The notes beneath the pieces are model-generated. The model had not been told where the DNA came from, searched no databases, and was given only the letters and a program-made list of their open reading frames with translations. The translations under genes and the position numbers were made by a program. Source: a virus (Duplodnaviria > Heunggongvirae > Uroviricota > Caudoviricetes). From it: 64,000 nt of DNA. The stretch is taken from the IMG/VR virus record IMGVR_UViG_3300045988_007243. One strand, written 5' to 3'. This document shows positions 16,891-37,400 of the stretch, piece by piece. Each line of letters begins with the position of its first letter. The stretch's first letter is position 1.

Positions 16891-16895
16891 AAATT

Positions 16896-16973: not shown

Positions 16974-16974
16974 T

Positions 16975-17049: not shown

Positions 17050-17054
17050 TGAAA

Positions 17055-17141: not shown

Positions 17142-17145
17142 AATT

Positions 17146-17222: not shown

Positions 17223-17229
17223 TTAATTT

Positions 17230-17304
17230 GGAGCATCCAGAGGGAATCGAACCCTCAACCTCAGTTTGGAAGACTGTAATTTTCCCGTTTAAACTATGGA
17301 TGCA
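17230..17304 (-). tRNA. tRNA-Gly (UCC)
   Basis: Perfect acceptor gcatcca/tggatgc, perfect T-stem, U73, anticodon loop gives UCC. Confidence 0.65.
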
Positions 17305-17310
17305 CTAATT

Positions 17311-17386
17311 GGTGGAGAAGCAGGGAATTGAACCCTGTACTTAAGTTTGCAAAACTTATGTTTTAACCATGTAAACTACATCCCCA
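17311..17386 (-). tRNA. tRNA-Ala (UGC)
   Basis: Perfect T-, anticodon- and D-stems; anticodon UGC; G3-U70 wobble and A73 (Ala identity elements) present. Confidence 0.7.
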
Positions 17387-17392
17387 ATGTTT

Positions 17393-17468
17393 GGTACAGG
17401 TGGAGGGAATTGAACCCATCATCTTACTGATTAAGAGTCAGCCGCATAACCATTTTGCTACACCTGCA
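17393..17468 (-). tRNA. tRNA-Lys (CUU)
   Basis: CCA encoded, anticodon hairpin actga/tcagc with loop giving CUU; scaffold paralogous to 19090-19165. Confidence 0.55.
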
Positions 17469-17475
17469 TTAATTT

Positions 17476-17552
17476 GGTACACCTAGAGAGATTCGAACTC
17501 ACACTGAGCAGATTCTAAGTCTGCTGCCTCTACCAGTTGGGCTATAGGTGCA
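17476..17552 (-). tRNA. tRNA with Leu anticodon UAG, short variable arm
   Basis: CCA encoded, A73, perfect anticodon stem gcaga/tctgc, loop gives UAG; 5-nt variable region. Confidence 0.5.
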
Positions 17553-18005
17553 TTAAATCAAATGTCTTGAGAATTGACTGTGGCAATTTGGACACAAGAA
17601 CCGAAGATTCTCTTTTCTATCATCTAACCAGTTCTCGTTAATGTGGTCAACATCAAGAGTTAGAGGGTTATCCAACCAATACGGTAACTGACCACATTTA
17701 GAGCATTTGTATTCGACACCAGAGGCTATTAAAGCTCTTCTTAGTTGTGAAGACCTAGCTCTTTCACCAGATTCACGTAGAATTAGTATTTCTTCAGGCT
17801 TTCTTTTTGGTACAGTTTTAATCTTACCAGCCTTTTGTCCGAGGAAATGAGAAGTGTCTATTTCAAACTTCTCTATAACACGCTTTAGATGTGACTGAGA
17901 ACCACCTGCTGGTTTTCTCCCAAGCTTAATAAGTACTTCTCTGAATGATACTGAATCCTTTACTAAAGGCTCAAGAATATCTTTAGTCAAACTGCTACGT
18001 GCCAT
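17553..18005 (-). CDS. HNH homing endonuclease
   Basis: 150 aa; C-terminal HNH motif (LDVDHINENWLDDRKENLRFLCPNCH); free-standing inside tRNA array. Confidence 0.75.
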   Translation of the reverse strand: MARSSLTKDILEPLVKDSVSFREVLIKLGRKPAGGSQSHLKRVIEKFEIDTSHFLGQKAGKIKTVPKRKPEEILILRESGERARSSQLRRALIASGVEYKCSKCGQLPYWLDNPLTLDVDHINENWLDDRKENLRFLCPNCHSQFSRHLI

Positions 18006-18097
18006 GTGTCAATCTCCCATTAAACCTTTTTAGAGAACTTCTAAGAACCTAAGCAACAAGGTTCCACAACAAGCTGTAATAACCTTAGAAGCCCTCT

Positions 18098-18122
18098 AAA
18101 AAGACCTAAAAAGGTCTTTGCA
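18098..18122 (-). terminator. possible intrinsic terminator/hairpin
   Basis: AGACC-N5-GGTCT hairpin followed by a short U-tract on the minus strand. Confidence 0.3.
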
Positions 18123-18274
18123 TAGTCTTGTTTAATCTGGTGACTAGAACCTTTGGAGAGCTTGATATTATCTCTTCTCCGTGACACCTACTAGGTGCTT
18201 TATCAGTGTGTACGACAACACGAGGGATAAACCGAAAATGCGAGCAAGCATGGACGGTGTAAAATCTTATTAGG

Positions 18275-18362
18275 CGGTAAGTAAAGGAGTCGAACCCTCA
18301 CCGTATCTCTACAGTGGCAACAGTTTTCAAGACTGTTTGGCTGCCATTAGCCGCTACCTACC
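18275..18362 (-). tRNA. tRNA-Ser (UGA), long variable arm
   Basis: Perfect anticodon stem acagt/actgt, loop gives UGA, 20-nt variable arm; CCA not encoded. Confidence 0.6.
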
Positions 18363-18375
18363 CCTAATAAGACTT

Positions 18376-18458
18376 TGGCATGGGACGGAGGAGTTGAACC
18401 CCTTTGAAACGGTTTTGGAGGCCGTTGCTCATGCCTTAGAGTCTTAACATCGTCCCAT
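18376..18458 (-). tRNA. tRNA, identity unresolved (possibly Trp CCA)
   Basis: CCA encoded, perfect acceptor atgggac/gtcccat, canonical T-loop; internal fold ambiguous, about 7 nt longer than class I. Confidence 0.4.
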
Positions 18459-18601
18459 ACTATAATTCGAAGCTCACCGTATTATCTCAACACTGTAAAG
18501 CCCCTTCTCAGATTATTTACATGTTCTGGAAAACATGAGATACAGACCACCTCCCTACAGGAAGACCCGCTTAGGTCGTCTAAGTAATCTGCTAACTAAA
18601 T

Positions 18602-18683
18602 TGGTCGAGGCGGCAGGACTCGAACCCGCATACTCCACTTACTCGGTTAACGGCGGTTTAGAAGACCGCTGAGATACGCCCCG
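18602..18683 (-). tRNA. atypical tRNA-like gene (anticodon hairpin reads UCU, Arg)
   Basis: CCA encoded, acceptor and T-arm canonical, perfect 5-bp hairpin with loop UCU, but no room for a normal D-arm. Confidence 0.35.
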
Positions 18684-18931
18684 TAATTATCTTTAAAGAC
18701 TCTCTTAGAAAGCCCTTAAAGATGCCCACCTTATTAATCATACCGTGGGCGAGTACGCCAAATTCTTTGATGAGGGATTGGAAGACCTCACTGGTGTTTA
18801 GCCTATCAAGCTACTGCCAGAAAAACATTGTCGTTTGCATTTATTTTAAATTTGCAAAATAGACGCTACGCAACGAAAACTAAGGTTAGTATAAAGTAGT
18901 CACATCTCAATGTCAACAACTTTATTGAAAT

Positions 18932-19007
18932 TGGTACTGGTAGGTGGAATCGAACCACCGATGTTCCCTTATCAGGGGAGTGTTATAACCTTCTTAACTA
19001 TACCAGC
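18932..19007 (-). tRNA. tRNA-Ile (GAU)
   Basis: Perfect T-stem ggtgg/ccacc, perfect D-stem, anticodon loop gives GAU. Confidence 0.6.
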
Positions 19008-19008
19008 T

Positions 19009-19085
19009 TGGAGGTTCAGATGGGAATCGAACCCACATTCATAGGGCTTATGAGACCCTTGCATTACCTTATCTGCGACTGAACC
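19009..19085 (-). tRNA. tRNA-Met (CAU) (or lysidine Ile)
   Basis: Perfect acceptor ggttcag/ctgaacc, anticodon stem with GGG/CCC, loop gives CAU. Confidence 0.6.
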
Positions 19086-19089
19086 ATAT

Positions 19090-19165
19090 TGGTAGAAGTG
19101 GAGGGATTCGAACCCATCGCCTGTCAGATTAAAAGTCTGCCGCATCACCATTCTGCTACACTTCC
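19090..19165 (-). tRNA. tRNA-Lys (UUU)
   Basis: CCA encoded, anticodon loop TTAAAAG(rc) gives UUU. Confidence 0.55.
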
Positions 19166-19170
19166 ATTAA

Positions 19171-19312
19171 ATTATCTTTGTAGATAAGCTACCCAGACTT
19201 GCTTAAGGTCTGTAGCGATGTGCCTTTTTGGGTTTAAATCTAGAATTTACCCTTTCACCCTTTGTGGTCGCATACTCACAGGTAAGCTTAATAACTTATC
19301 TACAAAGATAAT
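19171..19312. repeat. 18-bp perfect inverted repeat pair flanking a 106-bp spacer
   Basis: attatctttgtagataag at 19171-19188 is the exact reverse complement of cttatctacaaagataat at 19295-19312. Confidence 0.6.
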
Positions 19313-19365
19313 TACCAGACCGTTGTTTATCATCTTAAGTGCTACCATTACACCAACTCGACATC

Positions 19366-19390
19366 TGCCGAGTGAAGGAATCGAACCTTC
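19366..19390 (-). pseudogene. tRNA 3' fragment (acceptor + T-arm only)
   Basis: gccgagt + gaagg-AATCGAA-ccttc matches a tRNA 3' half but no matching 5' half follows. Confidence 0.35.
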
Positions 19391-19424
19391 GCCTTTTCTT
19401 TACCGAGAAATAGATTGTTTAAGT

Positions 19425-19452
19425 TTTGCTGTAAACGGTCTTCTGTAAATTT
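19425..19452. repeat. 28-bp repeat tttgctgtaaacggtcttctgtaaattt, copy 1
   Basis: Identical 28-mer at 19993-20020; diverged copies at 19512-19536 and 20161-20187. Confidence 0.6.
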
Positions 19453-19619
19453 GTTGAGCCAGACCAAGTTTTAAATTTTTCAAAATTAAATTGGCTTGAA
19501 ATTTTAAGTAACTTGCTGAATTTGGTCTTCTGCTCCTTTAAAGAATACTCGTAAGAACCCTTTAAGGGAGGGGCTAAATAGCCCTCTCAAAACATCATTT
19601 TGAAATACTTATTATAAGT

Positions 19620-19696
19620 TGGCGGCTACGATGAGACTTGAACTCACATCATCTCCCGTGACAGGGGAGTATTTTCTCCAGTTAAACTACATAGCC
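19620..19696 (-). tRNA. tRNA-Asp (GUC)
   Basis: CCA encoded, perfect anticodon stem ctccc/gggag, loop gives GUC. Confidence 0.65.
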
Positions 19697-19701
19697 TTTA
19701 T

Positions 19702-19789
19702 TGGTGTGCCGTGTAGGAGTCGAACCTACCGAGTCTCAATGACAAGGGATTTACAGTCCCCACCGCTACCATCTACGGGATAACGACAC
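19702..19789 (-). tRNA. tRNA-Tyr (GUA), long variable arm
   Basis: Perfect T-stem, anticodon loop gives GUA, about 15-nt variable arm. Confidence 0.6.
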
Positions 19790-19801
19790 ATTTTAATTTA
19801 T

Positions 19802-19857
19802 ATTCAGGATAAGGACTTGCACCTTACAAATCGGTGAGCAATCGCTTCTCTCCTAAA
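19802..19857 (-). pseudogene. truncated tRNA-like element (56 nt)
   Basis: Acceptor-like ends pair, perfect T-stem taagg/cctta around a mutated T-loop ACTTGCA; too short for a tRNA. Confidence 0.3.
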
Positions 19858-19859
19858 TT

Positions 19860-19936
19860 TGGCGGTTAGTCAGGGATTCGAACCCTGTGCCATTCGCTTA
19901 ACAGGCGACCGCACATACCTTATGTGCTTCCTAACC
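19860..19936 (-). tRNA. tRNA-Asn (GUU)
   Basis: Perfect T-stem caggg/ccctg, D-stem gcac/gtgc, anticodon loop gives GUU. Confidence 0.55.
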
Positions 19937-19992
19937 ATGTTTAGTATTACCAGACCGTATCTTTCAATTTTTTCCGCTAAAAATTTCATTAA

Positions 19993-20020
19993 ATTTGCTG
20001 TAAACGGTCTTCTGTAAATT
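19993..20020. repeat. 28-bp repeat tttgctgtaaacggtcttctgtaaattt, copy 2
   Basis: Identical to 19425-19452; abuts the 3' end of the tRNA at 20020-20096. Confidence 0.6.
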
Positions 20021-20096
20021 TGGAGGCGGGTGAAGGAGTCGAACCTGCCGATACCATGCTAATGAGACATGTGAGACGCCCTTTCTCTATACCCGC
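20020..20096 (-). tRNA. tRNA-Met/Ile2 (CAU), second CAU species
   Basis: CCA encoded, anticodon stem catgc/acatg, loop gives CAU; position 1-72 unpaired. Confidence 0.5.
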
Positions 20097-20188
20097 AATT
20101 CTTAATGACCAGACCAAATCTCTTCTTTGTCCGATTTACCTTCAGATGAATAAGATTAAGTTTGCTGTAATTGGTCTTCTGTCAAAAC

Positions 20189-20266
20189 TGGCGTTCCAGA
20201 AGGGATTTGAACCCTCAAATATCCACTTTGAAAGAGTGGTGACTATACCATTTTGTCTACTGGAAC
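20189..20266 (-). tRNA. tRNA-Glu (UUC)
   Basis: Perfect acceptor gttccag/ctggaac, perfect anticodon stem ccact/agtgg, loop gives UUC. Confidence 0.65.
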
Positions 20267-20273
20267 ATTAATT

Positions 20274-20350
20274 TGGTCTCTGTTGGAGGACTTGAACCTC
20301 CGGCCTTACCGCCCCAAACGGAACGCTCTACCAAGCTGAGCTAAACAGAG
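20274..20350 (-). tRNA. tRNA-Pro (UGG)
   Basis: Perfect acceptor ctctgtt/aacagag, perfect T- and D-stems, anticodon loop gives UGG. Confidence 0.6.
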
Positions 20351-29692: not shown

Positions 29693-30250
29693 GTGATAGA
29701 TATGGAAAAAGATAACTTAAAAGAAGTTGAAGGTAACTACTTAGTACTTGACTGGAATGATATTCGTGGAGCACTCTACGAAGAAAGCCTTAATAGGTTA
29801 GAACAAATTATCTTTGCAGTACGGGGTTACAGAGAGGTTCAAAATGGTAAAGAGCCACTTGAAGGAATCTTTGTAGAGAAGTCTTATCCGTTCTATGAAG
29901 ACACTTTACAGAAAGTTAAAATGTACTTTAGACAGAAGAACCGTAAAGTGGTCACTATGGTATCTCTTGGTGGACAGAATATGTCTGTGATGGAAGATAT
30001 TAATCCTAAGAGACCGAGTAAAGGTATCTGTATAAAAATCACAGGACATGAAGAGTATATCTCAGTGGATGATTTTAGTTCATTCTGTAATGGCTCTTGT
30101 GTCTTTAATGGTTTTCACTATGATATCCGAGTGTACCCAATCAAGGGAGATGATATCATGATGCAGGTATTTGATAACAACAACGGCTTTACTCATTTTT
30201 ATCAGACAACCAAGTCATCACTAAAAACAGTTCTGGAAACACTGATTTAA
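29693..30250 (+). CDS. hypothetical protein
   Basis: 185 aa ORF, last of plus-strand block. Confidence 0.4.
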   Translation: MIDMEKDNLKEVEGNYLVLDWNDIRGALYEESLNRLEQIIFAVRGYREVQNGKEPLEGIFVEKSYPFYEDTLQKVKMYFRQKNRKVVTMVSLGGQNMSVMEDINPKRPSKGICIKITGHEEYISVDDFSSFCNGSCVFNGFHYDIRVYPIKGDDIMMQVFDNNNGFTHFYQTTKSSLKTVLETLI

Positions 30251-30260
30251 AATATCTTAA

Positions 30261-30293
30261 GAGCCTCCTTAATTGGGGGCTTTTTTAATTTTT
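30261..30293 (+). terminator. intrinsic terminator ending plus-strand block
   Basis: gagcctcc-ttaatt-gggggc hairpin followed by TTTTTTAATTTTT. Confidence 0.55.
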
Positions 30294-31960
30294 ATAAAAT
30301 TTTATCGGTTGTCCCAACCTCTGGGTCACCATCATATGTGAATAAAATATCTATCCTTCTTAGCAACCTTCTTAATCTTACTCTCTATATAGTTATATAG
30401 TACTATATAGTATCTTAGTAACTATCTAGTGGTCTTAATAGCCCTCTGTATAACCCTTCTAACAAGCCCTCTAACAAACCTTCTTAACAACCTATACAAT
30501 CACCTTAACCATCTCTCTACACCTTCTTAGAAGCCCCTATACACCTCTTAATCTCTATGTCAGCTATGATACCCTCTATAGGTGTTCACTAGGAAATACT
30601 AAGCCTCTATATAGACTGTTTTAACAAACTTAACAGGAATATCTTTACAGACCTTATCTCACAAGGTCTAACACGGTACTAACAAGGTATCTTATAAGCC
30701 TGTTTATGCCTGTATTTTTAAAAGACTGTATAGGTAATTATTCAGAATTTTAAAATTTTTATAAAATAGGACTATCAAGTCATTTTTTAGGGTCTTTGAA
30801 GGGACTCAAAAATATCTGATTAGGGTGTATATCTGCTTGGTAGCCCTTAACAGCTCCCTTACAAGTACTTTGCAAAATTTTAAAATATCCTTAACAATCT
30901 CTTAACAGTTCTCACATCTTCTTAACAACTCTTCAAAGGTCTTAACAGATTCTTAACAGAACTAACAAGGCTGTAACAGTTTCTTAACAGTTGATACATA
31001 GGCTTTACAGAATCTTAACAGATGACTAATAAGAGCTAACAGGGATTGGTAGATGATTCGGATGAAGCATCCTCATAACAATACCAATTAGTTAATTTTA
31101 AAGAGTTATTTTGTTAAGATAATTAACAAGTTTCTAACAAGTATTTAATCTTTTTAACAAGCTATTAACATGGTCACTACTCTTTTCTTATCGTTCCCTC
31201 TCCCTCTTAGTGATTCTCTAAACATACCTCTTAAAAGCTCTCTATAGCTCTTTATAAGCCCTTTTAAGCCTCTTCCTAGTAATTACACCCCAACTGTACA
31301 GACACCTTTTTATAGAGCTTTACAGGAGCTTTTAAGGCTATGTCAAAGACTCTTACAAGGCTTTTACGTGGTTTTAACAGAGATTTAACAAGGGGCTAAC
31401 AAGTTGCTAACAAGTGCCTTAAAAGCATAACTATGTAGGGATTGTTAAGAATTTGTTAAGAAAATGTTAAGGGGGCTAGCATTTACGTAACTTTATAGCT
31501 TCTTTTACGTAACTTTGAAGCAACTTTATAGCCCCTATAACATACTTTTAAGACACTAACAATAGGATTCGATAGATTCCTATCTCATAGCCCTTTTTAG
31601 TAGTTCACAAGAATACTAACGAGATAATAAAGCTTATAACCTTATAAGATTCTTTTAAGCCTCTATAAAGCCCTGTAAAGAGCTTTTTAGGGTGAGTTAA
31701 TGCAATCCCTTAAGTTATATTGATAAGGCTGTTATAGAGCTTTATAGAGCGTTTTAGTGGTTGCCCTTCCCTTTCGGGTTATGGGCTTATATTTAAGTTG
31801 ATTTGATAAGAGGTTATAGAGTAAACTATAGAGTTATTGCTTTTAAGGTATGGGATAGATTCTGGAAAGGAAAGGGAAAGGATTGTATAGGGATTCGATA
31901 AGACGTAAAAAAGCCCCTATGAGAAGGAGCTTTGAAGGTATCTGGGGCTATTTAGCCCCG
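30290..31960. repeat. ORF-free region dense in TTAACA(A/G) iteron-like motifs
   Basis: No ORF of 60 aa or more on either strand over about 1.7 kb; dozens of TTAACA(A/G) in both orientations, including phased arrays. Confidence 0.6.
31375..31475. promoter_or_regulatory. convergent 11-bp-phased iteron arrays (candidate origin/operator)
   Basis: Four direct (T/C)TAACA units at exact 11-bp spacing (31375-31418), then three inverted TGTTAAG units at 11-bp spacing (31443-31475). Confidence 0.45.
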
Positions 31961-31969
31961 TTGCGTCGA

Positions 31970-32218
31970 TTAGTTGTAACCTTGTTTATTGTAGTACAGT
32001 GAGATAATCAAGTCACCCCAGTAATGATAGTGATGCTCGTCGTTTAATGCCTCTTTTACAGCGTCTTTCCAGAAGTCATCAGTAGGGTTATAATCTGGGA
32101 TAACTTGCTTGATAACTGTCTTCACTAATGAAAAACACTCATCAGTTCCACCAATATCAAATTTAACGTCCAGAGTATAACAGCCATAAGCATTGACAGT
32201 TGCGCGGATAGTTGCCAT
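31970..32218 (-). CDS. small hypothetical protein (cassette gene 1)
   Basis: 82 aa; start preceded by conserved TAAACTAGGAGATTCAAAA leader. Confidence 0.5.
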   Translation of the reverse strand: MATIRATVNAYGCYTLDVKFDIGGTDECFSLVKTVIKQVIPDYNPTDDFWKDAVKEALNDEHHYHYWGDLIISLYYNKQGYN

Positions 32219-32221
32219 TTT

Positions 32222-32290
32222 TGAATCTCCTAGTTTAAGGACTTTACTTAGTGGGGAAGGCCATTCCCTCCCCGTTGATGAGTAATTTAC
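32222..32290 (-). promoter_or_regulatory. repeated leader element, family A (GC hairpin + RBS)
   Basis: ggggaaggccattccctcccc hairpin plus conserved aaggactttacttagtgg and RBS; copy 1 of 5. Confidence 0.5.
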
Positions 32291-32550
32291 TGCATGTTGG
32301 CGTATGTTGCAAGCCTTTTTTCGTTGTATTTTGTAAGAATCTCACAAGATAAAACATCGTAATTTGTAATAGCGTTGCCTTTGTCGAGGTCAAAGAATCC
32401 AAACGCTTTACCGTCTTTGAATCCTACAACTTCATAAGACTCTTTGATGATTTCACCATTGAACAAATCGCTTTCAATGCGGTGTAATAATGCTACGTTT
32501 TCTTTGTCGGTTGCGATTTGTAAAAGTGTGGTCAATTCTACGTTTTCCAT
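32287..32550 (-). CDS. small hypothetical protein (cassette gene 2)
   Basis: 87 aa. Confidence 0.45.
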   Translation of the reverse strand: MENVELTTLLQIATDKENVALLHRIESDLFNGEIIKESYEVVGFKDGKAFGFFDLDKGNAITNYDVLSCEILTKYNEKRLATYANMQ

Positions 32551-32560
32551 CTTGATAACT

Positions 32561-32620
32561 CCTAGTTTAAGGACTTTACTTAGTAGGGAGGTTATCCCTC
32601 CCGTTGATTAGTAATTTACT
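32561..32620 (-). promoter_or_regulatory. repeated leader element, family A variant
   Basis: gggaggttatccctccc hairpin with conserved flanks. Confidence 0.45.
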
Positions 32621-32770
32621 TGTTTTGATATCTGATTGCAAGCAATTTTTTAAGTTTATCTATAAAGAATCTTTTAAGTTAATCCCTTTTAGATAAACCC
32701 CCTCGAACAAAGTTACCAATGTCAAGGGGCATTGTCAACACTTTTTTAAAAGTTTTTTGTAAGTTATTGA

Positions 32771-33112
32771 TTAACTGATGAATATTTTTTCAGGTTTTAC
32801 ATAGCTGATACGCTGACTTTTTAGCAAGTCATCCCAGATTATTGCCGCAATATGAGAATAACCAGACTCACGCAAGAGCTTCATTGCTTTACATCTCGTT
32901 TCAAATCTGGTTGCGTAGTACTCACTATTCAAAACAGTTTTCTTCCCTTCGTTATCTGTATGGATAATCTGCATTACTTGAAAGGGGCTGACATCCTCGC
33001 CTTTGTTCCATTGCTCAAAGTATTTTAGGCACTGCATAGGTGACATCTTATCGCTTACTTGAGTTGACCAAGATGCGCCAGCTTTATCGGTAATTACGGT
33101 TACATAAGCCAT
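32771..33112 (-). CDS. small hypothetical protein (cassette gene 3)
   Basis: 113 aa; conserved leader upstream. Confidence 0.45.
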   Translation of the reverse strand: MAYVTVITDKAGASWSTQVSDKMSPMQCLKYFEQWNKGEDVSPFQVMQIIHTDNEGKKTVLNSEYYATRFETRCKAMKLLRESGYSHIAAIIWDDLLKSQRISYVKPEKIFIS

Positions 33113-33184
33113 TTTTGAATCTCCAGTTTAGGATTTTATTTAGTGGGGAAGGTCATCCCCTCCCCGTTGATTGACAATTTACAG
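33113..33184 (-). promoter_or_regulatory. repeated leader element, family A
   Basis: ggggaaggtcatcccctcccc hairpin with conserved flanks. Confidence 0.5.
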
Positions 33185-33201
33185 ATTTTTATCAGGCTTG
33201 T

Positions 33202-33435
33202 CTAGTCTTTTTCAATGATAATTTCATATTGACCGTCAACACTGTCGAAATAGATTCCGTCGTCATCTTCTGTCTTAAAGTAACATTGTATATCATCACT
33301 GGCGGGATAGTCTTGCCTTGCTATCTGGCAAACTTGAATAGCATTTTCTTTACTTCCTGTAAACTCTTCAAGCCCTTTAAAGTCACATGAATGGCCATTA
33401 CAAATTGAGAGGATGAGATAAACGGTTGTAAGCAT
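33202..33435 (-). CDS. small secreted/membrane-anchored protein (hypothetical)
   Basis: 77 aa with hydrophobic N-terminus. Confidence 0.4.
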   Translation of the reverse strand: MLTTVYLILSICNGHSCDFKGLEEFTGSKENAIQVCQIARQDYPASDDIQCYFKTEDDDGIYFDSVDGQYEIIIEKD

Positions 33436-33444
33436 GATTTAAGC

Positions 33445-33475
33445 CCTCTAAAAGCCCCTACAAGGGGCTGATTAG
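33445..33475 (-). terminator. possible intrinsic terminator
   Basis: agcccc-ttgta-ggggct hairpin followed by TTTTAG on minus strand. Confidence 0.35.
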
Positions 33476-33501
33476 TGTTTATAAGGTGATTGCATAGGTT
33501 T

Positions 33502-34044
33502 TTAGAAAAAGCTCTTTAAATCCTCTTCTGCAATGTTTCCTGTCAGTGTGTCCATGATGTCACAAAAAACCTGAATACTGTCGGACTGTTGAACACTTTT
33601 AGCAAGAAGTTCCAGAGACTTATCAAGATAGTTTAAATTTGGGTTATCCAGTGAAGGAAGACAAAAAGGCGAAAACATAGCATTAAATTCAGTGATGTAA
33701 ACCTTTTTAATCCAATTTAAATCGAAATATTCTGTAAAACTTGCCACACTCGACATATTATCACAAGAATAATCATCATTTAACTCATCTTCTGGAATAT
33801 CAAGTTCCAAGATGACAATGTTTTGAGTTTTCATCTGAAAAGCTGCGGTGATAGTGGCATTGCCCAGAGCTTGTTGTATACCTTCAGATGCTATCTCTTC
33901 CGCATCGTCGCCATAGATTTTATTTTCTGGATAAACGTAAAAATTGCCGTCCATATCCGAACAATTCCATGCACCTGATGGCTTATCACCGTTATTAATC
34001 AGGTTGAGGAAATTTTCTTGAGTAGTTCCGTGATAACATTTCAT
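33502..34044 (-). CDS. hypothetical protein
   Basis: 180 aa, acidic; conserved leader upstream. Confidence 0.45.
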   Translation of the reverse strand: MKCYHGTTQENFLNLINNGDKPSGAWNCSDMDGNFYVYPENKIYGDDAEEIASEGIQQALGNATITAAFQMKTQNIVILELDIPEDELNDDYSCDNMSSVASFTEYFDLNWIKKVYITEFNAMFSPFCLPSLDNPNLNYLDKSLELLAKSVQQSDSIQVFCDIMDTLTGNIAEEDLKSFF

Positions 34045-34140
34045 TTTTAGAATCTCCAGTTTAGGATTTAGTGGTAAAGCTCTTTATCTGAGGCTTAAGT
34101 TATCAACTTTTAAGCCCCTTGTAAAGTACTTTATTTGTTA
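34045..34140 (-). promoter_or_regulatory. repeated leader element, family B (ggcttaa...ttaagcc hairpin)
   Basis: Conserved ggatttagtggtaaagctctttatctg + hairpin + ccttgtaaagtactttatttgtta. Confidence 0.5.
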
Positions 34141-34334
34141 TTTTTGACAACTTTTAAAACTGCAAGATAGCCTAAGCAATAAGAATCACCGAAGAGAGTC
34201 CTACCCATGAAAGAATCCTCTTTGATATCCTTTGCAGTGACAGTTTTTTCTACGCCGTGGGAAAGGACTATATCACCAACTTTGATATCTTTGATGTGTG
34301 TAGTTTCAATGGTTAAACCATTAATAATAGCCAT
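34131..34334 (-). CDS. small hypothetical protein
   Basis: 67 aa; conserved leader upstream. Confidence 0.4.
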   Translation of the reverse strand: MAIINGLTIETTHIKDIKVGDIVLSHGVEKTVTAKDIKEDSFMGRTLFGDSYCLGYLAVLKVVKNNK

Positions 34335-34433
34335 TTTCAGAATCTCCAGTTTAGGACTTTATTTAGTGGGGAAGGTCATTCCCTCCCCGTTGATGTGTAA
34401 TTTAGACTATCTAAAAATCAGTGTCAACAAAAA
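34335..34433 (-). promoter_or_regulatory. promoter + leader cassette, family A (TTGACA-17-TAAATT, GC hairpin, RBS)
   Basis: Minus strand: -35 TTGACA (34422-34427), 17-bp spacer, -10 TAAATT (34399-34404), then hairpin and RBS. Confidence 0.55.
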
Positions 34434-34437
34434 TTTT

Positions 34438-34842
34438 TTATAGTTCTGCATAAATTGCATCGCAGATATTACGGAAATCGTGATTTGCCAAATTACGCTG
34501 CAACCAAGTGGCGAAAAAGTCAGCGATTGCAAAGTTAGCATCATACTCGACAGATAACCACACTTTAACAGCAAATCGGAACATTTTCAAATCTAACTCT
34601 TTATTCATTACCTTAGATTTGCCTAACATGTCGGCCATTTCATGTTGTGCACCGTCTAGCGTGATACCTGCTGCAACGTCAGTCAATGAGTTTTTTACGC
34701 TTTCAACGTCTAAGATAACACTTTGAATCTTCCCAATAATGTTTTGCAGTGTTTTATCTGGTGCTGATGACGTGATAACATTAATCCGGTTAACGGTCAA
34801 ACGTGCTTTTAAAATTGATAATTCACGGTTATTAATAGCCAT
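34438..34842 (-). CDS. hypothetical protein
   Basis: Start moved to ATG at 34842 (MAINNRELS) directly after the conserved RBS; ORF-track start 34857 lies within the repeated leader. Confidence 0.45.
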   Translation of the reverse strand: MAINNRELSILKARLTVNRINVITSSAPDKTLQNIIGKIQSVILDVESVKNSLTDVAAGITLDGAQHEMADMLGKSKVMNKELDLKMFRFAVKVWLSVEYDANFAIADFFATWLQRNLANHDFRNICDAIYAEL

Positions 34843-34935
34843 TTTTAAGTTCTCCAATTTAGGATTTAGTGGTAAAGCTCTTTATCTGGGGCTTACTTTA
34901 TCGAACTATAAGCCCCTTGTAAAGTACTTTACATT
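34843..34935 (-). promoter_or_regulatory. repeated leader element, family B (near-identical to 36483-36580)
   Basis: Perfect 8-bp hairpin ggggctta...taagcccc; about 95 bp near-identical to the copy at 36483-36580. Confidence 0.55.
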
Positions 34936-35201
34936 AAATGCAGTTTTTTGCCTTTTACTATAATGTAACTCGATGCGCTATTGCTTTGCACATCTTGATA
35001 AATTCTGCGTAAACGTCCTTCGTAGTATACTTTCCAACTGGTTGGAATCTTTTTCCCGTATCCTGTAGCAGTTTTTTGGAGTCCTGCAACTTGCCAATTT
35101 AAGATGTGTTGCTCAGCTTGTAAATCATCAAAGTGCATCACACCATTCACATAGTGACGCAGGGTTACGTTTAAAGTGCGACCGTTGTTAGTAGTATACA
35201 T
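34929..35201 (-). CDS. small hypothetical protein
   Basis: 90 aa; conserved leader upstream. Confidence 0.4.
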   Translation of the reverse strand: MYTTNNGRTLNVTLRHYVNGVMHFDDLQAEQHILNWQVAGLQKTATGYGKKIPTSWKVYYEGRLRRIYQDVQSNSASSYIIVKGKKLHLM

Positions 35202-35227
35202 TTTCAGAATCTCCTAGTTTAAGGATT

Positions 35228-35386
35228 TTATTTTGACAGTTCACTAATTAAGACATCAAAGATTATATCATTATCTGCTACAGTTGCAACACCAGTGATA
35301 TAATCAATTTCTAAGATAACAACAACTTTCGTACATAAACCGTCATCTATATCATTCCAGACAACTTTATCACCTGCACAAAACAT
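35228..35386 (-). CDS. small hypothetical protein (about 52 aa, below ORF-track cut-off)
   Basis: ATG at 35386 directly preceded by the conserved leader; hand translation MFCAGDKVVWNDIDDGLCTKVVVILEIDY... Confidence 0.35.
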   Translation of the reverse strand: MFCAGDKVVWNDIDDGLCTKVVVILEIDYITGVATVADNDIIFDVLISELSK

Positions 35387-35484
35387 TTTTGAATCTCCTA
35401 GTTTAAGGACTTTATTTAGTGGGGAAGGTCATTCCCTCCCCGTTGATGTGTAATTTAATCTATCTAAAAACCAGTGTCAACAGT
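35387..35484 (-). promoter_or_regulatory. promoter + leader cassette, family A (TTGACA-17-TAAATT, GC hairpin, RBS)
   Basis: -35 TTGACA (35475-35480), 17-bp spacer, -10 TAAATT (35452-35457); near-identical to 34335-34433. Confidence 0.55.
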
Positions 35485-35809
35485 TTTGTTTTCGTTTGCT
35501 CAATTCTTGAACAATTACAGCGTAGTAGTCTTTTAAGTCACTGACATTTAAAGCATTTATCAGAGAATTATAATCATCAACTAACTGAAAATTATCTTTG
35601 AAGATGTCACTTATCTGATAGGTTTTCGCTTTATATCTGAAGCTCATCTCTAGCCGCTTTATTTGCTCATCACTGAGGCGCCCTAGAAAGCTTTCTACAA
35701 GGTTATTACTAACCTGCTGCGTAATTGCCTTACTTGCTAGATTATAGGCTTTATATGCCTTATATAGCGCGAAAATGGCAATGATTGCAGTGATACCAGT
35801 CATTAACAT
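35477..35809 (-). CDS. membrane protein (hypothetical)
   Basis: 110 aa with N-terminal transmembrane helix; GAGGAAACACC RBS. Confidence 0.45.
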   Translation of the reverse strand: MLMTGITAIIAIFALYKAYKAYNLASKAITQQVSNNLVESFLGRLSDEQIKRLEMSFRYKAKTYQISDIFKDNFQLVDDYNSLINALNVSDLKDYYAVIVQELSKRKQNC

Positions 35810-36099
35810 GGTGTTTCCTCTTTACGTGATACTTTGCCATTTACAGTTATCTCATAGGATTCTAATAAATCGCTTTTAGACTTTACAGGACTTTTAAAAG
35901 TATTATCGTATATATTAACTTGTAATACAGGTTTTTTATACTCCCTGCAACTGTTCCATAAGCAAATCACTACACGACGACCTTTTATTTTGCCGTGTAA
36001 CCATTCCATAACATCATGCCTATTCCTTGATGTCTCGATAAAATCAATTTTGTTGAGTAATTTGCTCAAATTTTCACGCACTTGATTTGATAATTTCAT
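35803..36099 (-). CDS. small hypothetical protein
   Basis: 98 aa; conserved leader upstream. Confidence 0.4.
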   Translation of the reverse strand: MKLSNQVRENLSKLLNKIDFIETSRNRHDVMEWLHGKIKGRRVVICLWNSCREYKKPVLQVNIYDNTFKSPVKSKSDLLESYEITVNGKVSRKEETPC

Positions 36100-36200
36100 T
36101 TTAGAATCTCCTAGTTTAAGGTCTTTATTTGATAAAGCTCTTTATCTGGGGCTTAAGGTATCAGCTTTTAAGCCCCCTGTAAAGTACTTTATTTGTTAAT
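36100..36200 (-). promoter_or_regulatory. repeated leader element, family B
   Basis: ggggcttaa-N11-ttaagcccc hairpin with conserved flanks. Confidence 0.5.
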
Positions 36201-36482
36201 TTTCAGCTTTGCATAACTTCTCATTGTACGAATGGGGGATGTTAATGCTACGCGTCTAATGTATGCCTTTTTCGTGTATACATTTGTCTTCCCGATAGTG
36301 TTTACACATGTAAAAAGGTTTATCGGTGAATTTTTTAACTTCAACTGTTTATCAACCTTCACGCCCCACCTTACAGCAGATTGTTTTCCGTTGTCAACCA
36401 CTTTCCCGCATAACTTTTTAGCCATAACGCGAGCGTCATCACGAGTCTTTGCAGTAATTACAACGTTTTTGATAATAGCCAT
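36189..36482 (-). CDS. hypothetical protein
   Basis: Start moved to ATG at 36482 (MAIIKNVV) after the conserved RBS. Confidence 0.45.
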   Translation of the reverse strand: MAIIKNVVITAKTRDDARVMAKKLCGKVVDNGKQSAVRWGVKVDKQLKLKNSPINLFTCVNTIGKTNVYTKKAYIRRVALTSPIRTMRSYAKLKINK

Positions 36483-36580
36483 TTTTAAGTTCTCCAATTT
36501 AGGATTGAGTGGTAAAGCTCTTTATCTGGGGCTTACTTTATCGAACTATAAGCCCCTTGTAAAGTACTTTATTTGTTAAT
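36483..36580 (-). promoter_or_regulatory. repeated leader element, family B (near-identical to 34843-34935)
   Basis: About 95 bp near-identical to 34843-34935 including perfect hairpin. Confidence 0.55.
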
Positions 36581-36953
36581 TTTGAAGATAGTTACATAAC
36601 CATCGCTGCCGATGATTTGTGATGCTCCAGCTTTTTCTACTTGATAGCCCATATTTTCAAGATGGTAAACAGCATCATCATAACCATATGCACCGCCCTG
36701 ATAACGTCTCTTATCACATCTTACTAATACCTTTCCACGTCCTGCCAGTGCATTTAGTACGGCTTTTTCACTTGAAAGTGTACCATCTAACATGGTTGCC
36801 GTGTAATGGTTGATTCTATTCCCGTTTACATCATACTTAAAATTGAATGCGTGAACAACGATAATGTTACCTTTAAAATTTTCATCAAGTGACTTCTCCA
36901 GTGCGTTGCGAAAGTTGTCTTTGTTGATGAATTTAGGTGCACGATATGCCATT
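36569..36953 (-). CDS. hypothetical protein
   Basis: Start moved to ATG at 36953 (MAYRAPKF) after the conserved leader; 128 aa. Confidence 0.45.
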
Positions 36954-37199
36954 TTTGAATCTCCTAGTTTAAGGTTGTTGAGCTTGTCGCCCCGTCTGAT
37001 GCAAATATTAGATAACACAGTTCAAAGAGTCAAGAAAATTTTTAAAAATATTTTTTGCAAAATTGTAATGAAACGGGTGCGCGCGACTACCACAAAACAG
37101 AACTACAATCAAGAATTATTTTTCAATCCGCTACAAATTTTTCTGTTGACTTTTATTTTCAGATGTGGTAGCCTTGTGAGAAATGGCGACAGTCCCACC

Positions 37200-37400
37200 T
37201 ACCCCCACCTACCTGCACAATTCTAAAATGATTTTTCTTGCCCGACCTGATTTTTCTCTGCACGTTTTGAAAATGAAAAAACCCTTTGGAGATTACCTGC
37301 ACAGTTTGAAAATGAATTTTCTCTTTGGAGTTCAAAATTTTCTCTATAGATTCCTCTACAGAACTCTACCTGCACAAATCTGAAATGAAAAAGCCCTCCT
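37200..37400. repeat. direct repeats TACCTGCACA...GAAAATGA in non-coding region
   Basis: TACCTGCACA occurs at least three times (about 37211, 37294, 37366), each followed by (T/C)TGAAAATGA within about 15 bp. Confidence 0.5.

What the first reader, a model, noticed from the sequence alone, without database searches (positions are those of the whole stretch)
31970..37018. Array of 13 small genes separated by repeated promoter / stem-loop / RBS cassettes
Between 31970 and 37018 every gene is under 185 aa and each is preceded by a member of one of two repeat families. Family A has a GC-rich hairpin (ggggaagg-tcatt-ccctcccc); family B has a perfect hairpin (ggggctta...taagcccc). All share a near-invariant leader ending in TAAACTAGGAGATTCAAAA-ATG. 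Two family A copies carry an exact TTGACA-17-TAAATT promoter. The hairpins lack U-tracts, so they are not intrinsic terminators. The layout resembles T4 promoter-early stem-loop (PeSL) elements, which delimit exchangeable early-gene cassettes, and such loci are where phages keep host-takeover and anti-defence genes. None of the 13 products has a recognisable fold.
Basis: partly seen in the sequence, partly recalled or inferred. Interest (0 to 1): 0.75.

Follow-up and report, generated by a model that had tools for sequence, protein, structure and literature searches.

The report
Swappable early-gene cassette array in phage
This stretch of a Felix O1-like phage genome holds 13 small genes, most of which sit behind a near-identical promoter, hairpin and ribosome-site unit, and related phages have gained, lost and swapped single genes at exactly these units, much as described for T4-type phages.

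Summary
The window is a Felixounavirus. Thirteen minus-strand ORFs of 52-180 aa lie at 31970-36952.

- **Cassettes:** Ten ORFs are preceded by a composite cassette: six of family A (one degenerate) and four of family B. One ORF has only the shared leader, one overlaps its neighbour, and one follows a true terminator.
- **Family A:** TTGaca-17-TAAATT, 10 nt, an 8-bp GC hairpin, then the leader.
- **Family B:** an invariant TTTACA-17-TAnnnT promoter embedded in a 60-nt interrupted hairpin that starts at the upstream stop codon.
- **Conservation:** Across 106 (A) and 135 (B) unique copies from relatives, the hexamers stay fixed while spacers and loops vary. Stems keep pairing through compensatory and sense-strand-only G·U changes.
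- **Distribution:** The cassettes occur only in this array and only in Ounavirinae.
- **Turnover:** Eighteen complete arrays give 16 gene orders and 24 gene families, 6 of them universal. Three genes sit in different slots in different phages. Indel junctions lie in the cassettes.

The PeSL-like reading is therefore supported, as a new member of a known kind. Promoter activity and hairpin function remain untested. Parts of the repeats had been noted before without this interpretation.

The parts
36953..37033 (-). Array-entry cassette upstream of g1. It is a degenerate A type: TTGACT (37033-37028), 17 nt, TAATAT (37010-37005), a weak GGGC/GCUC hairpin, then the leader CCTTAAACTAGGAGATTCAAAA.
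   Evidence: In relatives this position holds a full family A cassette.
36569..36952 (-). g1, 127 aa, pI 9.3, PHROG 4495 (unknown function)
36483..36572 (-). Family B cassette B1 (before g2). TTTACA-17-TAAAGT lies at 36563-36535. The extended hairpin spans 36513-36572 and includes the g1 stop codon. The leader follows.
36189..36482 (-). g2, 97 aa, very basic (pI 10.7, net +18)
36100..36192 (-). Family B cassette B2 (before g3). TTTACA (36183-36178), 17 nt, TACCTT (36160-36155). The extended hairpin spans 36133-36192.
35803..36099 (-). g3, 98 aa; universal in the 18 complete arrays
35477..35809 (-). g4, 110 aa, with a hydrophobic N-terminal segment. It overlaps g3 by 7 nt, has no cassette, and is universal.
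35387..35480 (-). Family A cassette A1 (before g5). TTGACA-17-TAAATT lies at 35480-35452, with the -35 hexamer inside the end of g4. The hairpin is at 35421-35441. The leader follows.
35228..35386 (-). g5, 52 aa, acidic. It is a variable gene, present in 2 of 18 complete arrays. It is 100% identical in L016 and L060, whose flanking genes are 89-95% identical.
35202..35227 (-). Leader-only spacer before g6 (AATCCTTAAACTAGGAGATTCTGAAA). It is the direct-repeat partner that bounds the g5 insertion.
34929..35201 (-). g6, 90 aa, basic, universal
34843..34932 (-). Family B cassette B3 (before g7). TTTACA-17-TAAAGT lies at 34923-34895. The extended hairpin spans 34873-34932. It is 99% identical to B1 over 99 nt, including the first 4 codons of the downstream gene.
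   Evidence: (D4)
34438..34842 (-). [not shown]
34335..34437 (-). Family A cassette A2 (before g8). TTGACA-17-TAAATT lies at 34427-34399, with an AT-rich stretch upstream. The hairpin is at 34368-34388.
34131..34334 (-). g8, 67 aa. It is a variable gene (11 of 18 arrays). In some relatives it is replaced by, or sits next to, x82a.
34045..34134 (-). Family B cassette B4 (before g9). TTTACA (34125-34120), 17 nt, TAACTT (34102-34097). The extended hairpin spans 34075-34134.
33502..34044 (-). g9, 180 aa, acidic, with an ADP-ribosyltransferase fold. H5, Y36 and E80 are conserved. It is the orthologue of Bas63 gp107.
   Evidence: PMC11482910
33449..33469 (-). Intrinsic-terminator-like hairpin (AGCCCCUUGUAGGGGCU followed by UUUU) between g9 and g10
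33202..33435 (-). g10, 77 aa, very acidic. It has no cassette and its own ribosome site (GAGGG).
33113..33204 (-). Family A cassette A3 (before g11). TAGACA-17-TAAATT lies at 33204-33176. The hairpin is at 33145-33165.
32771..33112 (-). g11, 113 aa, universal. It is 100% identical in L016, where the neighbouring g10 is 91.9% identical.
32551..32770 (-). 220-nt spacer before g12. It holds a CCCCUUGA/UCGAGGGG hairpin followed by a long AU-rich hairpin (z -4.1). Family A cassette A4 follows: TTGCAA (32641-32636), 17 nt, TAAATT (32618-32613), with its hairpin at 32586-32602.
32287..32550 (-). g12, 87 aa, acidic, variable (10 of 18 arrays)
32219..32312 (-). Family A cassette A5 (before g13). TTGCAA (32312-32307), 17 nt, TAAATT (32289-32284), which overlaps the g12 stop codon. 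The hairpin is at 32253-32273.
31970..32218 (-). g13, 82 aa, universal but with several allele classes (100% down to about 69% nucleotide identity)
31907..31969 (-). End of the array. A cassette-like remnant hairpin (CAACGGGGCUAAAUAGCCCCAGAUACC, 31944-31959) is followed by a true terminator (stem plus UUUUUU).

Best explanation
This is a hyperplastic early-gene array built from self-contained expression modules. It is functionally equivalent to the PeSL (promoter-early stem-loop) cassettes of T4-type phages, but it sits in the unrelated Felix O1 group (Ounavirinae).

**Module anatomy**
- Each module has a host sigma-70 promoter, a GC-rich RNA hairpin, a shared leader of about 35 nt with a strong ribosome site ((A)GGAG, 8 nt, ATG), and one small ORF.
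- In family A the promoter (TTGaca-17-TAAATT) is followed by the invariant ATCAAC. The transcript is predicted to start about 3 nt before an 8-bp hairpin. That hairpin would be a 5'-terminal stem-loop of the kind that protects E. coli mRNAs from 5'-end-dependent decay (inferred).
- In family B the promoter (TTTACA-17-TAnnnT) is embedded in a 60-nt interrupted hairpin that begins at the stop codon of the preceding gene.
  - The hairpin can form only in RNA read through from upstream. There it probably acts as a 3' protective, processing or attenuating structure (inferred).
  - New transcripts would start just 3' of it.

**Consequence for gene content**
- All modules are direct repeats sharing 25-100 nt.
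- Homologous recombination within a genome, or between co-infecting relatives, therefore deletes, duplicates, inserts and swaps single ORFs without breaking expression.

**Shown versus inferred**
- Shown: the anatomy, its conservation pattern, its restriction to this array, and cassette-bounded gene turnover and mosaicism.
- Inferred: promoter activity, transcription start sites, and what the hairpins do.
For: **Anatomy and folding**
- establish the cassette layout and hairpin stability.

**Conservation across unique copies (106 family A, 135 family B)**
- In A, TTG and TAAATT are nearly invariant while the 17-nt spacer varies.
- In B, TTTACA is invariant, including its unpaired CA. T and A of the -10 hexamer are invariant inside an otherwise variable loop. 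The middle three bases vary (TAAAGT, TATCTT, TAAGAT, TATGAT, TAGTAT).

**Hairpins are maintained**
- 97.4% of cells are paired.
- GC changes to UA at pair 6-56 in 12 sequences.
- Alternative arm sequences CTTA/TAAG and TTAT/ATAG both occur.
- Many G·U pairs are valid only on the sense strand: 32 of 83 at pair 21-41 and 75 of 83 at pair 7-55.
- Family A stems vary (GGGGAGGG/CCUUCCCC, GGGAGG/CCUCCC, GGGGAAG/CUUCCCC, GGGC/GCCC) but begin 2-4 nt after the predicted +1 in 84 of 106 copies. In 97 of 106 copies the fold of the first 30 nt is at or below -8 kcal/mol.

**Restriction to the array**
- In the complete Bas63 genome, all 5 A copies, 6 B copies and 12 leaders lie within 64.5-70.3 kb.
- Scans of IMG/VR hit only Felix-like contigs.
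- No cassette was found in representative genomes of 185,579 bacterial and archaeal species.

**Turnover**
- There are 16 gene orders among 18 complete arrays and 24 gene families, 6 of them universal.
- x82a, x63 and x82b each occur in more than one slot.
- Indel junctions lie in the shared leader or cassette.
- 117 of 124 segment ends are intergenic.
- The closest relative changes gene by gene, with 100%-identical g5, g11 and g13 beside neighbours that are 65-92% identical.
- A and B upstream modules combine freely with the two leader types.
- The adjacent region is collinear in 229 of 276 records, against 6 of 254 for the array.

**Other**
- The proteins are unrelated to each other.
- Felix O1 RT-PCR puts ORFs 16, 20, 21 and 22 of this array at 5 min after infection (PMC3185647).
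Against: - No transcription-start, termination or reporter data were found for any Ounavirinae phage.
- The generic promoter scan of the region is not clearly enriched over shuffles (37 found against 26.2 ± 5.2). The promoter call therefore rests on conservation.
- Family B -10 hexamers match the consensus at only 4-5 of 6 positions.
- Felix O1 ORFs 14, 17, 19 and 23 of the array peak at 25 min, not 5 min.
- Some mosaic boundaries are inside genes (WIN against L011 within g2). Recombination is therefore not confined to cassettes.
- The unique copies are phylogenetically related, so covariation and breakpoint counts are not independent events.
- The right arm of B (CCCCAGATAAAGAGCTTTAC) is more invariant than pairing requires. 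This is unexplained.
Confidence: 0.72

Rival explanations
1. The hairpins are transcription terminators or attenuators that insulate each gene, as proposed and reporter-tested for PeSL stem-loops. The promoter simply re-initiates transcription after each stop.
For: - The hairpins are GC-rich and stable, at -14 to -15 kcal/mol.
- The B hairpin begins at the upstream stop codon.
- PeSL stem-loops without obvious U-tracts reduced lacZ expression as strongly as rrnB T1 (PMC2839356).
Against: - No U-tract follows either hairpin.
- Canonical stem-plus-U-run terminators exist separately after g9 and g13.
- The A hairpin lies downstream of its own promoter, so a strong terminator there would abort its own transcript.
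Confidence: 0.25
2. Family B hairpins are RNase III processing sites in polycistronic early RNA, as between the early genes of T7. Processing would release individually stable mRNAs with hairpin 3' ends.
For: - The stem has about 20 bp (6 + 5 + 9) with symmetric internal loops, which resembles T7 R-sites (the resemblance rests on my own knowledge).
- Its G·U pairs are valid only on the sense strand.
- It sits between genes, at the stop codon.
Against: - The invariant TTTACA and TA...T hexamers at 17-nt spacing are not explained by processing alone.
- There is no Rfam match.
- The 8-bp family A stem is too short for RNase III.
- The two roles could coexist.
Confidence: 0.2
3. The conserved leader and inverted repeats are binding sites for a dedicated phage or host regulator, protein or RNA, that co-regulates all array genes. 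This would be analogous to the SAS/ESAS motifs of cluster K mycobacteriophages, or to T4 RegA/RegB targets. Shuffling would then be a side effect.
For: - The leader, and the B right arm CCCCAGATAAAGAG, are near-invariant beyond what the SD or pairing needs.
- The Mordin authors compared the 26-bp repeat to SAS (PMC4611695).
- The T and A insertions in the leader are perfectly coupled.
Against: - No candidate regulator was identified.
- Unlike ESAS, departures in the two arms here do support RNA pairing (against PMC3203893).
- The left arm of the B lower stem is variable, so a palindromic DNA operator is unlikely.
Confidence: 0.15
4. The repeats are leftovers of tandem gene duplication (a paralogous family sharing 5' UTRs), or of a site-specific integron-like system.
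For: - The units are direct repeats at regular spacing.
- One relative (Michonne) has a tandem duplicate of a [B + g2] unit.
- The B hairpin superficially recalls attC sites.
Against: - The 23 array protein families compared (13 from the window, 10 from relatives) show no detectable similarity to each other.
- No integrase or recombinase is annotated in the Bas63 genome.
- The junctions are consistent with homologous exchange in shared sequence.
Confidence: 0.03

Closest known systems
PeSL (promoter-early stem-loop) cassettes of T4-type phages RB49/phi1, T4/PST and KVP40/nt-1 (Arbiol et al. 2010, PMC2839356; Comeau et al. 2014, PMC4122927)
   Same: - Both are composites of a sigma-70-like promoter, a GGGG...CCCC stem-loop, and SD plus ATG, filling the gap between small ORFans.
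- The stem-loop lies either between or over the hexamers (as in family B) or just downstream of -10 (as in family A).
- There is an AT-rich stretch upstream of -35.
- The cassettes are concentrated in a hyperplastic region.
- Indels between close relatives are bounded by the motifs.
   Different: - The phage lineage is different (Ounavirinae), and no sequence homology was tested or expected.
- Only two sharply defined families are present. They share one leader and are confined to a single array of about 5 kb, rather than about 50 dispersed motifs.
- The A hairpin is predicted to sit inside the transcript at its 5' end.
- True terminators are separate elements.
- Promoter and terminator activity and mini-circles were shown for PeSLs but are untested here.
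Start-associated sequences (SAS) and extended SAS of cluster K mycobacteriophages (Pope et al. 2011, PMC3203893)
   Same: - A conserved asymmetric motif containing AGGAG lies a few nt upstream of the ATG of many non-structural genes from different families.
- About half of those motifs have an upstream imperfect inverted repeat.
- The motif is restricted to one phage group.
- The Mordin genome note made this comparison for the 26-bp leader (PMC4611695).
   Different: - The sequences are unrelated.
- SAS sites are spread over half the genome.
- ESAS arms do not covary as RNA and are thought to bind protein. Here the arms keep pairing, with sense-only G·U pairs.
- The cassettes here also contain conserved -35 and -10 hexamers.
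- SAS have not been linked to gene shuffling.
T7 early region (sigma-70 promoters followed by small host-takeover and anti-restriction genes separated by RNase III hairpins)
   Same: - Both are arrays of small early genes read by host RNA polymerase.
- Long interrupted hairpins lie between genes.
- One product looks like a host-modifying enzyme (g9 here; the 0.7 kinase in T7).
   Different: - T7 has promoters only at the start of the region, not before each gene.
- T7 hairpins are not embedded in promoters.
- The T7 early gene set is fairly fixed.
- This comparison rests on my own knowledge and was not tested.
5'-terminal stem-loop mRNA stabilisers (ompA 5' UTR type; Emory, Bouvet and Belasco 1992)
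   Same: A stable hairpin is predicted within 2-4 unpaired nt of the mRNA 5' end in family A.
   Different: The transcription start is only predicted from the -10 position. No half-life data exist. The comparison is from my own knowledge.
Integron gene-cassette arrays and phage morons
   Same: Single promoter-equipped or hairpin-flanked ORFs are added and removed as units at a dedicated locus.
   Different: - There is no integrase or attC signature.
- Exchange appears to be homologous, through shared regulatory sequence.
- Morons do not depend on conserved flanking repeats.

Membership tests
PeSL-type regulatory cassette | Sigma-70-like promoter hexamers at 16-18 nt spacing in the intergenic motif | tested here: met
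   - Family A: TTGACA, TTGCAA or TAGACA, 17 nt, then TAAATT.
- Family B: TTTACA, 17 nt, then TAnnnT.
- The hexamers are conserved while spacers and loops vary across 106 and 135 unique copies.
- Activity was not measured.
PeSL-type regulatory cassette | Adjacent or overlapping stable stem-loop, typically GGGG...CCCC | tested here: met
   - GGGGAGGG/CCUUCCCC folds at -15.2 kcal/mol and GGGGCUUA/UAAGCCCC at -14.4 kcal/mol.
- Pairing is maintained in variants.
PeSL-type regulatory cassette | Shine-Dalgarno and start codon of the downstream ORF at the 3' end; stop codon of the upstream ORF at the 5' end | tested here: met
   - The leader ends in (A)GGAG, 8 nt, ATG.
- The B cassette begins at the upstream stop codon, and the -10 of A5 overlaps the g12 stop codon.
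PeSL-type regulatory cassette | Located in a hyperplastic region, upstream of ORFans | tested here: met
   - 6 of 254 records are collinear over the array, against 229 of 276 for the adjacent 5.2 kb.
- No Pfam or NCBIfam family matches any product, and all PHROG matches are 'unknown function'.
PeSL-type regulatory cassette | Insertions, deletions and replacements between close relatives are bounded by the motifs | tested here: met
- There are 16 gene orders in 18 arrays.
- 117 of 124 segment ends lie in cassettes.
- Some mosaic boundaries are intragenic.
PeSL-type regulatory cassette | Stem-loop acts as a terminator or attenuator; promoter is strong in vivo | not testable with these tools
   This needs reporter fusions or TSS and 3'-end mapping. 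The sequence shows no U-tract after the hairpins.
PeSL-type regulatory cassette | Recombination between neighbouring motifs yields encapsidated mini-circles | not testable with these tools
   This needs inverse PCR on infected cells or virions.
SAS/ESAS (cluster K mycobacteriophages) | 13-bp motif GGGATAGGAGCCC 3-7 bp upstream of start codons | tested here: not met
   The leader here is CCT(T)AAACT(A)GGAGATTC. It shares only the AGGAG core (definition). The relation is analogy only.
SAS/ESAS (cluster K mycobacteriophages) | 17-bp imperfect inverted repeats whose departures do not support RNA pairing | tested here: not met
   Departures here preserve pairing: 97.4% of cells are paired, with compensatory and G·U changes.
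Intrinsic (Rho-independent) terminator | GC-rich stem-loop immediately followed by a U-tract | tested here: not met
   - The A and B hairpins are followed by ACUAAAUAAAG and AGAUAAAGAG.
- The scanner calls none of them.
- The scanner also reports no minus-strand site for the g9|g10 and post-g13 hairpins, whose U-runs are shorter than its rule. Reading the sequence and folding it shows a stem followed by UUUU and UUUUUU there.
ADP-ribosyltransferase fold (for g9 only) | Split beta-sheet ART core with an NAD-binding H-Y-E or R-S-E type triad | tested here: inconclusive
   - H5 and Y36 are invariant and E80 is conserved among close relatives.
- Distant family members give sub-threshold Pfam hits to PARP and 2CompART.
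- Catalytic-residue equivalence and enzyme activity were not shown.

The most novel reading that the evidence does not exclude
The cassettes may be more than passive homology. On this reading the array is a dedicated gene-capture and expression platform of Ounavirinae.

- The hairpins, the over-conserved B right arm and the leader would be recognised by a specific factor, such as RNase III, a phage RNA-binding regulator or a recombination protein.
- That factor would both time the shut-off of all array genes and target exchange.
- Single genes would then move between co-infecting phages at high frequency, possibly as mini-circles. Candidates are the 100%-identical g5, g11 and g13 alleles seen in otherwise 85-92% identical genomes.
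- In effect this would be an integrase-free integron of a virulent phage.
Probability: 0.15. Interest if true: 0.7.

Novelty: new member of a known kind. Interest (0 to 1): 0.45.

Why it matters
- **Generality of the mechanism.** The result extends PeSL-type modular shuffling, so far described only in T4-type phages, to an unrelated and much-used phage group. That group includes Felix O1, the BASEL phage Bas63 and many biocontrol phages. The extension suggests convergent evolution of regulatory cassettes that double as recombination linkers.
- **Annotation.** It explains repeats that earlier genome papers listed without interpretation. It also gives a conservation-based promoter map for an early region whose transcription was called unknown in the Felix O1 paper.
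- **Engineering.** The cassettes mark natural plug-in sites where foreign genes could be inserted with ready-made expression signals.
- **Gene discovery.** The variable genes are a focused candidate list for host-takeover or anti-defence functions. They include an ADP-ribosyltransferase-fold protein and several small acidic proteins.

Tried and rejected
- **Ordinary terminators.** Rejected: neither hairpin is followed by a U-tract, and separate true terminators are present.
- **Paralogous gene family.** Rejected: all-against-all BLASTP of the 23 families compared finds no similarity.
- **Known RNA family.** Rfam gives no match at E ≤ 1 except two chance hits outside the cassettes.
- **Palindromic DNA operator in B (AAAGTACTTT / AAAGAGCTTT).** Weakened: the left half-site varies (AGATTTCTTT, AAATTGCTTT), while its changes partly compensate with the right arm.
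- **Cassettes elsewhere in the genome or in bacteria.** None were found in the rest of the window or the rest of Bas63. Representative genomes of 185,579 bacterial and archaeal species gave only 4 chance 20-mer hits inside CDSs.
- **Array next to the physical genome end.** The UAB_Phi87 record starts in the tRNA region, so the array is probably not terminal. This was not pursued.
- **Protein function by sequence.** Pfam, NCBIfam and PDB sequence searches found nothing, and all PHROG matches are of unknown function.
- **g7 structure.** The model is confident, but no fold neighbour was found.
- **Literature.** Searches for Felix O1 or Felixounavirus transcription start sites, RNA-seq or PeSL links found nothing relevant.

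Full report
**Source and observation**

The window matches 254 phage records, almost all Felixounavirus (Felix O1-like myoviruses), at about 90% identity. The genes of the finding are on the minus strand. Thirteen ORFs of 52-180 aa lie between 36952 and 31970. The first starts at the ATG at 36952 behind the conserved leader, not at the GTG at 37018.

Repeat analysis and pattern searches confirm two repeat families and a shared leader. Each pattern matches 4 times where shuffles give 0.00. All matches lie within 32216-36973 of the 64-kb window.

**Anatomy, read on the sense (minus) strand**

*Family A* has five clear copies, before g5, g8, g11, g12 and g13. A degenerate sixth copy precedes g1. 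Each copy runs as follows:
- an AT-rich stretch;
- a -35 hexamer (TTGACA, TTGCAA or TAGACA), 17 nt, then TAAATT;
- ACnnATCAAC;
- the hairpin GGGGAGGG-aauga-CCUUCCCC;
- ACTAAATAAAGT and the leader CCT(T)AAACT(A)GGAGATTCAAAA, then ATG.

*Family B* has four copies, before g2, g3, g7 and g9.
- It starts at the stop codon of the upstream gene: (A)TAAAGTACTTTACA-aGGGGCTTA-loop-TAAGCCCC-AGATAAAGAGCTTTAC, then the same leader.
- It folds into a 60-nt interrupted stem of 6 + 5 + 9 bp, at -21 to -27 kcal/mol with z from -2.9 to -5.0.
- It also contains TTTACA-17-TAAAGT/TACCTT/TAACTT.
- The -35 hexamer lies in the lower stem. The -10 lies in the loop and right arm.

*The remaining genes* differ:
- g6 has only a 26-nt leader.
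- g4 overlaps g3.
- g10 follows a real terminator (stem plus UUUU).
- A second real terminator, preceded by a cassette-like remnant hairpin, closes the array after g13.

*The repeats run into coding sequence on both sides:*
- g1, g2 and g8 end in ...(I/N)NK*.
- g2, g7 and g8 start with MAI.
- B1 and B3 are 99% identical over 99 nt, including the first four codons of the downstream gene.

**Are the motifs functional or merely copied?**

I collected every copy from 22 related loci found through the flanking phosphatase gene, from pattern scans of IMG/VR and from GenBank records. This gave 106 unique family A and 135 unique family B sequences.

*Family A.* TTG of the -35 hexamer and TAAATT are nearly invariant. 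The spacer between them is variable. That is the pattern expected of a selected promoter, not of a frozen repeat.

*Family B.*
- TTTACA is invariant, including the CA that is unpaired in the hairpin.
- The T and A of the -10 hexamer are invariant within an otherwise variable loop.
- The middle of the hexamer changes freely: TAAAGT, TATCTT, TAAGAT, TATGAT, TAGTAT and others.

*The hairpins are maintained as well.*
- On 83 distinct B sequences, 97.4% of cells pair. Sliding the 3' partner by 1-3 columns gives 31-57%.
- Pair 6-56 switches from GC to UA in 12 sequences.
- The upper stem exists in two mutually compensated versions, CTTA/TAAG and TTAT/ATAG.
- G·U pairs that work only on the sense strand are common. 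This argues for an RNA structure in the transcript read through from upstream.
- Family A stems differ between copies (GGGGAGGG/CCUUCCCC, GGGAGG/CCUCCC, GGGGAAG/CUUCCCC, GGGAGGU/ACCUCCC, GGGC/GCCC). They still begin 2-4 nt after the predicted +1 in 84 of 106 copies.

These copies are related by descent. The counts are therefore not independent events.

**Distribution**

- In the complete Bas63 genome (87.1 kb), all 5 A copies, 6 B copies and 12 leaders lie in one array. It spans genes bas63_0098-0111 at 64.5-70.3 kb.
- IMG/VR hits are all on Felix-like contigs of 51-94 kb.
- The cassettes also occur in Mooglevirus (Michonne, Mordin, Moogle) and in phiSUSP1. There the array genes are only 72-82% identical to the window, while B cassettes are 79-92% identical.
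- A 20-mer scan of representative genomes of 185,579 bacterial and archaeal species found only four chance matches inside coding regions.

**Turnover**

- Eighteen arrays that reach g13 give 16 distinct gene orders and 24 gene families. Six families are universal: g3, g4, g6, g7, g11 and g13.
- Spacers are almost always 85-92 nt, so genes come and go as a gene plus one cassette.
- x82a is found in three contexts: g7|g8, g8|g9 and g7|g9. x63 is found at the head of the array and between g10 and g11. x82b is found before and after g11.
- Junction alignments show where the breaks fall.
  - The g5 insertion is bounded by direct repeats of the leader.
  - The g8 deletion fuses an A cassette to g9 within the leader.
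  - x82a is bounded by cassettes at both of its positions.
- The two leader types, CCTTAAACTAGGAG and CCTAAA(C/T)TGGAG, never occur in a mixed form. Both combine with both A and B upstream modules, which indicates exchange inside the cassettes.
- 117 of 124 megablast segment ends between the window and 18 relatives fall in the 30% of the span that is intergenic.
- The nearest relative changes gene by gene.

| Window gene | Closest relative | Nucleotide identity |
|---|---|---|
| g1 | L011 | 99.5% |
| g2 | L009 | 98% |
| g5 | L016, L060 | 100% |
| g11 | L016 | 100% |
| g12 | L005 | 98.9% |
| g13 | L015 | 100% |

- In L015, g9 is only 65% identical to the window's g9.
- Against L016, divergence drops from about 8% to zero at the end of g10 and stays zero through the cassette and g11. 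Against L011 the switch is inside g2, so some exchanges are intragenic.
- As a control, the adjacent 5.2 kb is collinear at 80% coverage or more in 229 of 276 records. The same holds for only 6 of 254 records over the array.

**Mechanism**

The best reading is an array of autonomous early expression modules that double as recombination linkers. This is the PeSL concept of Arbiol et al. (PMC2839356).

The PeSL description fits closely:
- a sigma-70 promoter;
- a GGGG...CCCC stem-loop at variable positions, including between or over the hexamers and downstream of -10;
- an AT-rich upstream region;
- SD plus ATG;
- location in hyperplastic regions upstream of ORFans;
- indels bounded by the motifs.

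What the hairpins do is inferred.
- **Family A.** With a start about 7-8 nt after TAAATT, the RNA would begin AAC-GGGGAGGG.... That is a 5'-terminal stem-loop of the type known to stabilise E. coli mRNAs (my own knowledge).
- **Family B.** The hairpin can form only in read-through RNA, because the -35 hexamer lies in its 5' arm. It would therefore act on the upstream message as a 3' protector, a processing site or an attenuator. Its roughly 20-bp interrupted stem makes an RNase III site, as in the T7 early region, a live rival.
- **Terminators.** Neither hairpin looks like an intrinsic terminator.

The over-conservation of the B right arm (CCCCAGATAAAGAGCTTTAC) is not explained by pairing.

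**Gene content**

- No product has a Pfam or NCBIfam match. All PHROG matches are of unknown function.
- The families are unrelated to one another.
- g9 (180 aa) gives an AlphaFold model of pLDDT 77.
  - The family is broad, with 329 representative clusters. Distant members give sub-threshold PARP and 2CompART Pfam hits.
  - H5 and Y36 are invariant.
  - This agrees with a remark on Bas63 gp107 in the PhageMaP preprint (PMC11482910).
- g7 folds confidently (pLDDT 91) into an all-helical domain with no clear neighbour.
- g2 is very basic. g5, g9, g10, g12 and g13 are acidic.
- Felix O1 RT-PCR places ORFs 16, 20, 21 and 22 of the array at 5 min, and ORFs 14, 17, 19 and 23 at 25 min (PMC3185647).

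**Prior knowledge and novelty**

- Whichard et al. 2010 listed the 57-bp and 39-bp sequences as direct repeats between Felix O1 genes 15/16, 19/20, 18/19 and 20/21. They did not interpret them, and they stated that transcription control was unknown.
- Guan et al. 2015 noted a 26-bp repeat upstream of 8 Mordin genes and likened it to mycobacteriophage SAS.
- I found no paper that links these repeats to promoters, hairpins, PeSLs or gene shuffling in this phage group, within the searchable library.

The finding is therefore a new member of a known kind. It is of moderate interest for phage genome evolution, annotation and engineering.

Noticed in passing
window 30250-31970: A 1.72-kb gene-free, AT-rich stretch (34% GC) lies between the array terminator and the convergent plus-strand unit. 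TGTTA[AG] occurs 26 times on the minus strand (15.1 per kb, against 1.3 per kb window-wide, and only 4 on the plus strand). The copies are often phased at 9-11 nt. CTATAAAG/CTATAGAG-type repeats are also present. This looks like an iteron or protein-binding array, possibly an origin. A gap of the same size is present in Bas63 (70492-72155).
   Followed up: partly
window 37130-37400 (minus strand): After the terminator that follows the phosphatase gene there are four copies of roughly TCATTTTcAAAnnGTGCAGGTA, spaced 73-84 nt apart. GGTAGGTGGGGGTAGGTGGG follows, and then the g1 promoter. The ~510-nt non-coding region is conserved in length in all relatives.
   Followed up: no
[not shown]
   Followed up: yes
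[not shown]
   Followed up: yes
window 32551-32770: The 220-nt spacer after g11 is conserved in length in all relatives. It folds into a CCCCUUGA/UCGAGGGG hairpin followed by a long AU-rich hairpin (-32.8 kcal/mol, z -4.1) ahead of the A4 cassette. It also contains two further TTGACA hexamers. It could be a terminator, a small RNA or the remnant of a lost gene.
   Followed up: partly
window 36473-36571 and 34833-34931; gene ends of g1, g2 and g8: The repeats run into coding sequence. Unrelated proteins share the N-terminus MAI (g2, g7, g8) and the C-terminus (I/N)NK* (g1, g2, g8). Two B cassettes within this genome are 99% identical over 99 nt, which is higher than the roughly 90% identity between genomes. 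This suggests gene conversion.
   Followed up: partly
all leaders, e.g. window 36953-36975 and 34045-34067: The leader exists in two discrete forms, CCTTAAACTAGGAG and CCTAAA(C/T)TGGAG. The extra T and the extra A are always present together or absent together in about 190 unique copies. The pair would add a U-A base pair to a small hairpin that covers the SD sequence.
   Followed up: partly
L061 6400-7350 (Citrobacter phage Michonne): There is a tandem duplication of a [family B cassette + g2] unit. Its junction is non-homologous: ...AAAATG joins directly to CTTTACATGGGG. This could be array expansion by duplication, or an assembly artefact.
   Followed up: no
window 31944-31959: After the last gene there is a hybrid hairpin. 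It has an A-like 5' flank (CAACGGGG) and a B-like 3' flank (GCCCCAGATACC), and no gene follows it. It could be a decayed terminal cassette or a landing site for new genes.
   Followed up: no
window 14640-20350: A cluster of 25 tRNA genes lies on the minus strand, as is typical of Felix O1-like phages.
   Followed up: no
window 36189-36482 (g2): This 97-aa protein has pI 10.7 and a net charge of about +18. It matches four PHROG families of unknown function. It may bind nucleic acid, and it is present in 16 of 18 arrays.
   Followed up: no
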